Positions 60,777-61,604 of a DNA stretch of 64,000 nt are shown one piece after another. How positions within the stretch are numbered: the first letter of the stretch is position 1; each line of letters starts with the position of its first letter. Both the position numbers and the translations under genes were made by a program. Under the pieces are notes generated by a model. That model was not told where the DNA came from. It searched no databases and worked only from the letters and a program-made list of their open reading frames with translations. Source of the stretch: Escherichia phage ECML-363; sequence record OL631483.1. The stretch is one strand, 5' to 3'.

Positions 60777-61322
60777 ATGGCAGTAGCAGGACCGTGGGTA
60801 GGATCGTCTGCAGTAGTTAATACAGGACAAAATTGGATGGGCGGCGCGGCCCAACGATTAAGAATGGGCATTCCGTTCTGGATGAGTAATATGATAGGTC
60901 GATCTGTTGAAGTAATTCACACGCTTGGAGCAGACCATAACTTCAATGGTCAATGGTTCCGAGATAGATGTTTTGAGGCAGGTAGTGCACCTATAGTGTT
61001 TAATATCACTGGAGATTTAGTATCATATTCTAGAGACGTTCCTTTATTCTTCATGTACGGAGATACACCGAATGAATATGTTCAATTGAATATACACGGC
61101 GTAACGATGTATGGTCGCGGCGGGTATGGTTGGGCTGCTGGGGCGATTGGAGCGGCTGGCGGGGGGGTATGTATCCCAAATGATATAGGGGGGCGCCCCC
61201 GCATTCATAATGGGGGGGCTATTGCTGAAGGCGGCGGCGGGGGGGGGGGGGATTTGCCAGCCAATAAAATGGCGGGGGAAGATGGTGTGGGTATTGCACC
61301 TATAGTGTTTAATATCACTTGA
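60777..61322 (+). CDS. 38: gp38 receptor-recognising adhesin (T2 type), 5' fragment ending in a premature stop at a tandem-duplication junction
   Basis: ATG at 60777 with GGAGG RBS; N-terminus [13 protein letters not shown] resembles T2-type gp38; frame terminates at TGA 61320-61322 inside a 309 bp repeat. Confidence 0.65.
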
Positions 61323-61604
61323 TATTTAGTATCATATTCTAGAGGCTTTCCTTTATTCTTCATGTTCGGAGATGCACCGAATGAATATGTTCAATTGAAT
61401 ATACACGGCGTAACGATGTATGGTCGCGGCGGGAATGGTTGGGCTGCTGGAGCGATTGGAGCGTCTGACGGTGGTGTATGTATCCAAAATGATATAGGTG
61501 GACGCCTACGAATTAATAATGGGGGAGCTATTGCTGGAGGCGGCGGCGGTGGCGGTGGATATTCGCAAGCCAATAACTGGGCAGGAAAATATGTATGTGG
61601 AGGC
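60987..61604 (+). repeat. 38: Imperfect 309 bp tandem duplication inside the gp38 adhesin gene
   Basis: GCACCTATAGTGTTTAATATCACT at 60987 and 61296; two 309 bp units; the upstream unit carries G/C homopolymer runs (up to ~13 G); TGA at the junction. Confidence 0.8.

What the first reader, a model, noticed from the sequence alone, without database searches (positions are those of the whole stretch)
60987..61604. gp38 adhesin gene split by an imperfect 309 bp tandem duplication with G/C homopolymer runs
The receptor-recognising gene 38 carries two 309 bp units. The downstream unit has two T-to-G differences that create an in-frame TGA at the junction, so the gene reads as two ORFs (60777-61322 and 61362-61862). 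Without the duplication it would encode about 263 aa, the size expected for a T2-type adhesin. In the 3' half of the upstream unit nearly all differences from the downstream unit are A/T to G/C, giving runs such as GGCGGGGGGG and ~13 consecutive G. That pattern looks like poly-G sequencing or assembly error rather than protein divergence. If real, it is a disrupted or recently duplicated host-range determinant.
Basis: partly seen in the sequence, partly recalled or inferred. Interest (0 to 1): 0.7.

Follow-up and report, generated by a model that had tools for sequence, protein, structure and literature searches.

The report
Assembly artefact duplicating part of gp38
The apparent 309-base duplication that splits this T4-like phage's receptor-binding gene is almost certainly a sequencing and assembly error, because removing it restores a normal intact gene like that of every related phage.

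Summary
Bases 60981-61289 and 61290-61598 are two tandem 309-nt units (89% identical, no indels), and gene 38 reads as two ORFs.

- Deleting 309 nt gives a 777-nt, 258-aa complete Gp38 that differs from the closest phage (vB-Eco-KMB42) at 1 nucleotide.
- The extra copy carries 41 private substitutions. All lie in 61125-61374 around the junction, and their density rises to about 50% at the junction.
- The changes are substitution-only and dominated by A/T-to-G/C.
- On the upstream side, 68% copy the preceding base. They begin right after a CGCGGCGGG motif. This matches the published signature of GGC-triggered lagging-strand dephasing in Illumina read tails.
- All four G-runs of 6 or more in the 64-kb window lie in 61161-61251.
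- No other source has this junction: 401 phage records, IMG/VR, JGI metagenome contigs, and the best 120 of 139 gp38 protein clusters.
- As written, the gene would lack an adhesin shown to be essential for plaque formation.

Most likely two degraded sequence ends, such as the self-overlapping ends of a circularly permuted contig, were joined without trimming. This is not a biological feature, and interest is low.

The parts
60777..61862 (+). Gene 38 locus as assembled: 1086 nt, interrupted by a stop at 61320-61322. It lies between g37 (57416-60745) and holin gene t (61895-62551).
   Evidence: ORF list. Synteny with the annotated relatives KMB42, Ec_O157kw, CAM-21, G4507 and Sf23. Pfam Gp38_N and GP38 hits.
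60981..61289 (+). Upstream 309-nt unit. Its first 144 nt are identical to the relatives; its last 165 nt are degraded.
   Evidence: TRF. Alignment to KMB42 and Ec_O157kw. Polarisation.
61290..61598 (+). Downstream 309-nt unit. Its first 85 nt carry 7 private changes; the rest is identical to the relatives.
   Evidence: BLAST homology of all 401 phage records restarts exactly at 61290.
61125..61289 (+). Degraded stretch interpreted as a forward-direction read or contig tail.
- It holds 34 private substitutions and no indels.
- Density rises to 10 per 20 nt at the junction.
- 25 of 34 are A/T-to-G/C, and 23 of 34 copy the preceding base.
   Evidence: Matches the GGC-triggered dephasing signature in PMC3141275.
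61290..61374 (+). Second, milder degraded stretch with 7 private substitutions, 4 of them G-to-T. Interpreted as the other low-quality sequence end.
61320..61322 (+). In-frame TGA created by a private G-to-T at 61320 (GGA to TGA). It splits the gene into two ORFs.
61239..61251 (+). Run of 13 G produced by five private changes (GGT, GGC, GGT, GGA and T all becoming G) inside a Gly-codon tract.
60777..61124 (+). 5' part of the reconstructed true gene 38. Joined to 61434-61862 it gives 777 nt and 258 aa.
   Evidence: The collapsed gene differs from KMB42 gp38 at 1 of 777 nt and from Ec_O157kw at 2 of 777. It matches the full Pfam GP38 profile 1-218/218 plus Gp38_N.
61434..61862 (+). 3' part of the reconstructed true gene 38.

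Best explanation
The duplication is a sequencing and assembly artefact. The phage has one ordinary 777-nt gene 38 encoding a 258-aa T2/PP01-type adhesin.

In the assembly, two sequence ends overlapped by 309 nt of true sequence. Both ends were built from low-quality tails of sequencing-by-synthesis reads, and they were joined head-to-tail instead of being merged.

The left end (61125-61289) looks like a forward-direction read running into the GGC-rich glycine-codon tract of gene 38. Lagging-strand dephasing there makes the base-caller repeat the preceding base and overcall G and C, which produces the poly-G runs. The right end (61290-61374) carries a lighter load of miscalls, one of which creates the TGA.

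The most likely route is a contig of this circularly permuted genome that wrapped around and overlapped itself. A mis-merged read pair or a chimeric read would give the same result.

- Shown: the anatomy, the polarity and spectrum of the changes, and the uniqueness of the junction.
- Inferred: the platform and the exact assembly step.
For: 1. Relatives are single-copy. In all 40 listed records, including the closest relatives, the 1201-nt query spans about 892 nt, which is 1201 minus 309.
2. Removing 309 nt gives a gene with 1 of 777 differences from KMB42. The remaining 309 nt hold 41 private substitutions, all within 61125-61374. Fisher P is 1.6e-26 for the rate contrast.
3. Error density rises toward the junction from the left: 1, 1, 4, 1, 6, 2, 3, 6, 10 per 20 nt (Spearman P = 0.0015). 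It falls away to the right.
4. There are no indels.
5. The spectrum is 28 transversions to 13 transitions, with 22 changes to G. The window's background differences from KMB42 are 72% transitions. Fisher P is 1.8e-7 and 5e-5.
6. On the left side, 23 of 34 derived bases equal the preceding true base and 29 of 34 equal one of the preceding two. About 10 would be expected, P about 5e-5.
7. The first error falls directly after CGCGGCGGG. The + strand carries 8 GGC against 2 GCC in this stretch.
8. Nakamura et al. 2011 describe exactly this pattern for Illumina reads: GGC-triggered errors in one read direction, 49-64% of miscalls matching the preceding base, an A/T-to-G/C bias, and T-G and A-C cross-talk (PMC3141275). 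PolyG read tails are also documented (PMC6129281).
9. All G-runs of 6 or more in the 64 kb lie in 61161-61251.
10. The junction is absent elsewhere. No place in any of the 401 matching phage records covers even 80% of the query spanning the junction. It is also absent from IMG/VR and JGI metagenome contigs. The best 120 of 139 gp38 protein clusters are 194-303 aa long, whereas a clean duplication would give 361 aa. Two close Logan contigs are single-copy.
11. As written, the gene would be non-functional. T6 g38 amber mutants do not adsorb or form plaques (PMC3157838), and a g38 deletion phage (DT2, the engineered phage of that study) forms plaques only when gp38 is supplied from a plasmid (PMC12892980). 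ORF2 also has no Shine-Dalgarno sequence at a usable distance.
12. Phage assembly guidelines warn that contigs can exceed 100% of genome length and should be checked for duplicated regions (PMC8785237).
Against: - No reads, quality values or assembly history are available, so the artefact is inferred from sequence pattern alone.
- The right-hand stretch has only 7 changes and shows no clear next-base or previous-base signature. Its origin as a reverse-read tail is therefore unproven.
- A→G (8) outnumbers A→C (5) on the left, which departs from the pure cross-talk expectation.
- The rest of the window shows no other degraded patches. The problem is isolated, so the assembly is not generally poor.
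- A 309-nt duplication is in frame (103 codons), as a selected duplication would be.
Confidence: 0.9

Rival explanations
1. The tandem duplication is real, in the phage stock or a sub-population of it, but the 41 substitutions around its junction are sequencing errors. The junction would have been covered only by poor reads. The true allele would be a clean in-frame duplication of residues 69-171, giving a 361-aa gp38.
For: - The unit is exactly 103 codons, so a clean duplication stays in frame.
- Tail-fibre genes of T-even phages are known to tolerate rearrangement and modular exchange (PMC3157838).
- The error signature explains the substitutions but does not by itself explain why the sequence restarts at 60981.
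Against: - No gp38 of this length appears among the best 120 of 139 protein clusters, and no such junction appears in 401 phage records or two contig collections.
- The duplicated segment spans the N-terminal/linker region and the first glycine-rich motifs. Deleting individual motifs abolishes function, so a 103-residue insertion inside the fold is unlikely to be viable.
- Errors decaying away from the junction on both sides are what two abutted sequence ends produce. A well-covered real junction would not show this.
Confidence: 0.07
2. The duplication and the substitutions are both real. One copy of an older duplication diverged, or was hypermutated, for example by a diversity-generating retroelement (DGR)-like template/variable repeat mechanism or by gene conversion from a GC-richer homologue. 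This left gene 38 as a pseudogene or a two-part gene.
For: - 15 of the 41 changes are synonymous, against about 24% expected at random. Most are GGN-to-GGG in Gly codons. This could superficially resemble purifying selection.
Against: - Outside the 250-nt patch the gene is 776/777 identical to KMB42, so there has been no time for 16% divergence.
- The changes are not adenine-specific: 18 of 41 start from A and 13 from T, so the DGR hallmark is not met.
- The syntenic KMB42 region has no reverse transcriptase annotated.
- No known gp38 DNA matches 61190-61289.
- The excess of synonymous changes follows from the error mode, which repeats the preceding G inside GGN codons.
- The changes include a stop codon, and they replace conserved Cys and Trp residues.
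- A g38-null phage cannot form plaques.
Confidence: 0.02

Closest known systems
Illumina sequence-specific error from GGC-triggered lagging-strand dephasing (Nakamura et al. 2011, PMC3141275), and polyG read tails (fastp paper, PMC6129281)
   Same: - Substitution-only miscalls begin just after a GGC-rich motif on the strand being read.
- 68% of miscalls equal the preceding base, against 49-64% published.
- There is an A/T-to-G/C bias, and T→G greatly exceeds T→C.
- Errors increase along the read.
   Different: - The pattern is seen here in a finished consensus rather than in individual reads, so the stretch must have had single-read or very low coverage.
- A→G outnumbers A→C.
- The platform is unknown.
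Untrimmed self-overlap of contig ends in assemblies of circularly permuted phage genomes (warning in Turner et al. 2021, PMC8785237)
   Same: - A direct tandem repeat of read- or insert-scale length, in a T4-like genome, which is circularly permuted.
- The inner junction is formed by two low-quality ends.
- It is absent from all relatives.
   Different: - Overlaps of this kind are usually exact and lie at the record ends. Here the copies are 89% identical and internal, which implies re-orientation or closure after assembly.
- This cannot be verified without the assembly history.
T2/PP01/S16-type gp38 tail-fibre adhesin (Pfam PF21721 + PF05268; PDB 9V85, 6F45)
   Same: - The collapsed 258-aa product covers both Pfam models end to end.
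- It matches the PP01 gp38 receptor-binding domain structure at E = 2.6e-138 and S16 gp38 at E = 4e-53.
- The gene sits between g37 and t, as in all relatives.
   Different: As assembled, the gene is split into two ORFs that match profile positions 1-123 and 50-218.
Genuine host-range duplications in T-even tail-fibre genes (for example duplications in T4 gene 37; recalled from Tétart et al. 1996, not checked here)
   Same: An in-frame tandem duplication inside a receptor-recognition gene.
   Different: Genuine recent duplications have near-identical copies and give an open reading frame. This one has a junction-centred cluster of error-type substitutions and a stop codon.

Membership tests
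T2-type Gp38 adhesin (PF21721 Gp38_N + PF05268 GP38) | N-terminal Gp38_N attachment domain | tested here: met
   PF21721 matches 1-40/40 with E = 2.5e-21 in ORF1 and 7.6e-21 in the collapsed protein.
T2-type Gp38 adhesin (PF21721 Gp38_N + PF05268 GP38) | One continuous ORF covering the whole GP38 profile (glycine-rich motifs and hypervariable loops) | tested here: not met
   As assembled, ORF1 covers profile positions 1-123 and ORF2 covers 50-218. Only the collapsed sequence covers 1-218/218, with E = 3.2e-72.
T2-type Gp38 adhesin (PF21721 Gp38_N + PF05268 GP38) | Located immediately downstream of g37 and upstream of holin gene t | tested here: met
   ORFs and annotated synteny in five relatives.
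Genuine recent tandem duplication | Copies near-identical, with any differences spread evenly | tested here: not met
   The copies are 89% identical. All 41 private differences lie within 165 nt upstream or 85 nt downstream of the junction, and there are none elsewhere in the units.
Genuine recent tandem duplication | Junction seen in independent sequences or assemblies | tested here: not met
   No place in any of the 401 matching phage records covers even 80% of the query spanning the junction. There are 0 hits in IMG/VR and 0 in JGI metagenome contigs. Among the best 120 of 139 gp38 clusters none is longer than 303 aa.
Genuine recent tandem duplication | Supported by reads spanning the junction | not testable with these tools
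   No reads are available, and the window's own record is not in the indexed collections.
Diversity-generating retroelement (template/variable repeat pair) | Differences restricted to adenines of the template repeat | tested here: not met
   The ancestral base is A in only 18 of 41 changes, T in 13, G in 7 and C in 3.
Diversity-generating retroelement (template/variable repeat pair) | Reverse transcriptase gene nearby | tested here: inconclusive
   No RT is annotated in the collinear 64-kb region of KMB42. No dedicated RT profile scan of the window's ORFs was run.
Illumina GGC-triggered dephasing error (Nakamura 2011) | Miscalls begin within about 10 nt downstream of GGC on the strand read | tested here: met
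   The first error, at 61125, follows CGCGGCGGG (GGC at 61119). There are 8 GGC against 2 GCC on the + strand in 61066-61289.
Illumina GGC-triggered dephasing error (Nakamura 2011) | About half or more of miscalls equal the preceding reference base | tested here: met
   23 of 34 (68%) equal the previous base and 29 of 34 equal one of the previous two. The null mean is about 10, P about 5e-5. The published range is 49-64%.
Illumina GGC-triggered dephasing error (Nakamura 2011) | Substitutions without loss of register, with an A/T-to-G/C bias | tested here: met
   0% indels. On the left side 25 of 34 changes are A/T-to-G/C and 5 of 34 go the other way.
Illumina GGC-triggered dephasing error (Nakamura 2011) | Low base quality, with errors in one read direction only | not testable with these tools
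   This needs the FASTQ or BAM files.
Untrimmed contig-end self-overlap of a circularly permuted genome | The repeat corresponds to the two ends of the original contig | not testable with these tools
   The assembly history is unknown. Two observations are consistent with it: errors peak at the inner junction from both sides, and other public assemblies break inside this Gly-codon tract (P0121 ends in it).

The most novel reading that the evidence does not exclude
The 309-nt duplication is physically present in the phage DNA, and only the junction-proximal substitutions are errors. This would be an in-frame duplication of gp38 residues 69-171, carried by the stock or by a sub-population. It would be a previously unseen way of remodelling the polyglycine-sandwich adhesin.
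Probability: 0.06. Interest if true: 0.4.

Novelty: not a real feature. Interest (0 to 1): 0.08.

Why it matters
It matters mainly as quality control.
- As deposited or assembled, the sequence would lead annotators to call two gp38 fragments, or a disrupted host-range gene, in a phage whose relatives infect E. coli O157.
- It would also add a spurious 309 nt to the genome length.
- The corrected gene is a normal PP01-type OmpC-binding adhesin, 776/777 nt identical to that of phage KMB42.
- The case is also a clean example of how GGC-rich glycine-codon tracts in gp38 degrade Illumina reads and break assemblies. Other public assemblies of the same gene are broken in the same tract.

Tried and rejected
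- **Finding the source or an identical assembly.** Exact-protein look-ups of ORF1, ORF2 and gp37 returned nothing. The phage collection holds no record that is at least 99% identical over 20 kb.
- **tblastn of the degraded 69-aa segment against phages.** No match, probably because of low-complexity masking, so this is uninformative.
- **Using the Logan protein listed as 100% identical (P0001) as a re-assembly of the same isolate.** Rejected. Its contigs are only 98-99% identical to the window and the protein has a V-to-I difference, so it is a relative and not the same phage.
- **DGR-type mutagenesis.** Rejected because the changes are not adenine-specific.
- **Long-read, 454, Ion Torrent or Sanger tail as the source of the errors.** Judged unlikely because 41 substitutions occur with no indel.
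- **General poor assembly quality.** Rejected. Indels against KMB42 are compensating pairs inside divergent patches, and no other G-biased cluster exists.
- **Reverse-read signature on the right-hand stretch.** Only 7 changes, so inconclusive.

Full report
**1. What is in the sequence.**
Tandem Repeats Finder reports one array at 60981-61576 with period 309, 1.9 copies, 89% matches and no indels. At a fixed offset of 309 nt, 276 of 351 positions agree. At neighbouring offsets about 100 agree.

The ORF list shows 60777 (ATG; or 60765 TTG)-61322 and 61362-61862 on the + strand. They sit between a 1109-aa gp37 (57416-60745) and a 218-aa holin (61895-62551).

They are the only G-runs of 6 or more in the 64-kb window, and there is no C-run of that length. 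The minor corrections are listed under the observation check.

**2. What the locus is.**
The window is a Tequatrovirus (T4-like) genome segment. Its closest relative in the phage collection is Escherichia phage vB-Eco-KMB42, at 97.3% over 20 kb. The next closest are the O157-infecting phages Ec_O157kw, CAM-21 and G157lw. The window's own record is not in the collections I can search.

In the five relatives fetched, the gene between g37 and t is a single 777-nt adhesin gene. In all 40 listed records the 1201-nt query spans about 892 nt, which is 1201 minus 309.

**3. Polarising the differences.**
I aligned both units with KMB42 and Ec_O157kw and scored every position. This gave a very clean picture.
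- The upstream unit is identical to the relatives up to 61124.
- The downstream unit is identical to the relatives from 61375 onward.
- All 41 differences lie in 61125-61374 and are private to this window.
- Deleting 309 nt (for example 61125-61433) gives a 777-nt gene that differs from KMB42 at 1 nucleotide, from Ec_O157kw at 2 and from CAM-21 at 5.

The product is a 258-aa protein covering Pfam Gp38_N (1-40/40) and GP38 (1-218/218). The two ORFs as assembled cover profile positions 1-123 and 50-218. The collapsed protein matches the PP01 gp38 receptor-binding domain structure 9V85 (E = 2.6e-138) and S16 gp38 6F45 (E = 4e-53).

The rate contrast is 41 changes in 250 nt against 1 in 836 nt, Fisher P = 1.6e-26. 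A duplication young enough to leave the rest of the gene 99.9% identical to a sister phage cannot have accumulated 16% divergence in one patch by ordinary evolution.

**4. The pattern of the private changes.**
- Left of the junction, counts per 20 nt run 1, 1, 4, 1, 6, 2, 3, 6, 10, reaching about 50% mismatch in the last 20 nt (Spearman P = 0.0015).
- Right of the junction they run 1, 2, 2, 1, 1 and then 0.
- There are no indels.
- The spectrum is 28 transversions to 13 transitions, with 22 changes to G. The 1603 other differences between the window and KMB42 are 72% transitions with a balanced base spectrum. Fisher P is 1.8e-7 and 5e-5.
- On the left side 25 of 34 changes are A/T-to-G/C, and T→G (11) far exceeds T→C (1).
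- On the left side 23 of 34 derived bases equal the preceding true base, and 29 of 34 equal one of the preceding two. About 10 would be expected even when the G-rich spectrum is preserved, P about 5e-5.
- The first error, at 61125, comes directly after CGCGGCGGG. The + strand of this stretch has 8 GGC against 2 GCC.
- 15 of the 41 changes are synonymous, but this is a by-product of the error mode. Most are GGN-to-GGG, where the wobble base repeats the preceding G.
- The remaining changes include a stop codon and replacements of Cys, Trp and other residues.

**5. Comparison with known error modes.**
Nakamura et al. 2011 (PMC3141275) describe sequence-specific errors of Illumina sequencers with these properties:
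- they are triggered by GGC motifs in one read direction;
- 49-64% of miscalls match the preceding reference base, which the authors attribute to lagging-strand dephasing;
- A/T-to-G/C conversions are favoured;
- T-G and A-C conversions are favoured by optical cross-talk;
- GGC-repeat genes are singled out as especially hard to sequence.

The left-hand stretch fits every testable point. The fastp paper (PMC6129281) documents G over-calling in read tails on two-colour instruments, which would add to the effect. I cannot tell which instrument was used. Forty-one substitutions without a single indel argue against 454, Ion Torrent, nanopore, PacBio or a Sanger tail. That last point rests on general knowledge of those platforms.

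**6. Why the sequence restarts.**
Errors rise toward one point from both sides. That is what is expected when two low-quality sequence ends are abutted.

T4-like genomes are circularly permuted and terminally redundant (established knowledge). Their assemblies therefore wrap around, and guidelines warn that contigs can exceed 100% of genome length and should be inspected for duplicated regions (PMC8785237).

My best reconstruction has three steps.
- The contig broke in the GGC-rich tract of gene 38.
- Its two ends overlapped by 309 nt but were only 89% identical because of the read-tail errors.

A mis-merged read pair or a chimeric read would give the same picture. The exact step is inferred, not shown.

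Other public assemblies of near-identical gp38 genes are broken in the same tract, which fits this account. One partial protein ends at a contig end inside the Gly run. Two others are N-truncated and carry a 20-aa deletion between two Gly runs.

**7. Independent occurrence.**
- No place in any of the 401 matching phage records covers even 80% of the query spanning the junction. Their homology restarts exactly at 61290, and 61190-61289 finds no DNA match at all.
- The exact junction and an error-tolerant junction pattern both give 0 hits in IMG/VR. The error-tolerant pattern gives 0 hits in JGI metagenome contigs.
- A search of 5.8 billion proteins with the collapsed gp38 found 139 clusters. 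The best 120 are 194-303 aa long. A clean duplication would give 361 aa.
- Two Logan contigs from close relatives (98-99% identical) are single-copy.

**8. Biological plausibility of the sequence as written.**
- ORF1 would end after 116 native residues plus 65 corrupted ones.
- ORF2 starts at an internal Met with no Shine-Dalgarno sequence at a usable distance.
- T6 g38 amber mutants make normal-looking virions that do not adsorb or form plaques, and deletions of single glycine-rich or hypervariable segments are not recovered (PMC3157838).
- A g38 deletion phage (DT2, the engineered phage of that study) forms plaques only when gp38 is supplied from a plasmid (PMC12892980).

A propagated isolate therefore cannot have this as its majority genotype.

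**9. Rivals.**
- *A real clean duplication with errors only at the junction* cannot be excluded without reads. It is disfavoured by the absence of any comparable gp38 and by the two-sided error decay. I give it about 0.07.
- *Real divergence or hypermutation*, including a DGR-like mechanism, is rejected. The changes are not adenine-specific (18 of 41). No reverse transcriptase is annotated in the collinear relative. The rest of the gene shows no time for divergence. I give it about 0.02.

**10. Verdict.**
The feature is a sequencing and assembly artefact, with confidence about 0.9. The true gene 38 is 60777-61124 joined to 61434-61862. Novelty is "not a real feature", and interest is low.

Noticed in passing
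window 11028-11603: A second long tandem repeat: period 288, 2.0 copies, 79% matches, 2% indels. By collinearity with KMB42 it falls inside hoc (annotated at 106216-107634). It probably reflects the tandem Ig-like domains of Hoc and looks natural, not an artefact.
   Followed up: partly
protein cluster of P0001; no window coordinates: Other public assemblies of near-identical gp38 are broken in the same Gly-codon tract.
- P0121 (157 aa) ends at a contig end inside the Gly run.
- P0122 (165 aa, on a 168-kb contig) and P0125 (146 aa) are N-truncated. Both lack 20 aa ([20 protein letters not shown]-like) between two GGAGGCGGCGG repeats.

These could be recurrent assembly collapses or real deletions.
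   Followed up: partly
window 35048-35575 (- strand): A 175-aa ORF occupies a roughly 530-nt segment with no counterpart in KMB42 (an alignment gap at window 35054-35580). This is probably accessory-gene variation typical of T4-like genomes. I did not search for its function.
   Followed up: partly
window 44500-46300: The densest patches of mismatches and small compensating indels relative to KMB42: 49-61 differences per 250 nt, with a balanced spectrum. By collinearity they lie just downstream of nrdA, across the td, dihydrofolate reductase and neighbouring small genes. This looks like a natural mosaic or recombinant segment rather than error.
   Followed up: no
window 23088-23141: A 54-nt stretch has a second, 100% identical match at a non-collinear place in KMB42 (record 134096-134149), so it is a short dispersed repeat.
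   Followed up: no
window 60678-60718 and 60729-60752: A 21-nt tandem repeat (2 copies, 90%) encodes the [14 protein letters not shown] heptads at the gp37 C-terminus. It is followed by a GC-rich hairpin (gaggggcttcggcccctt) between g37 and g38. That hairpin is annotated as a terminator in phage G4507.
   Followed up: no
window 60885: The only difference between the collapsed gene 38 and KMB42 is a G-to-A that gives Gly37Ser. The same Ser is present in the Logan relatives, so it is a genuine polymorphism.
   Followed up: yes
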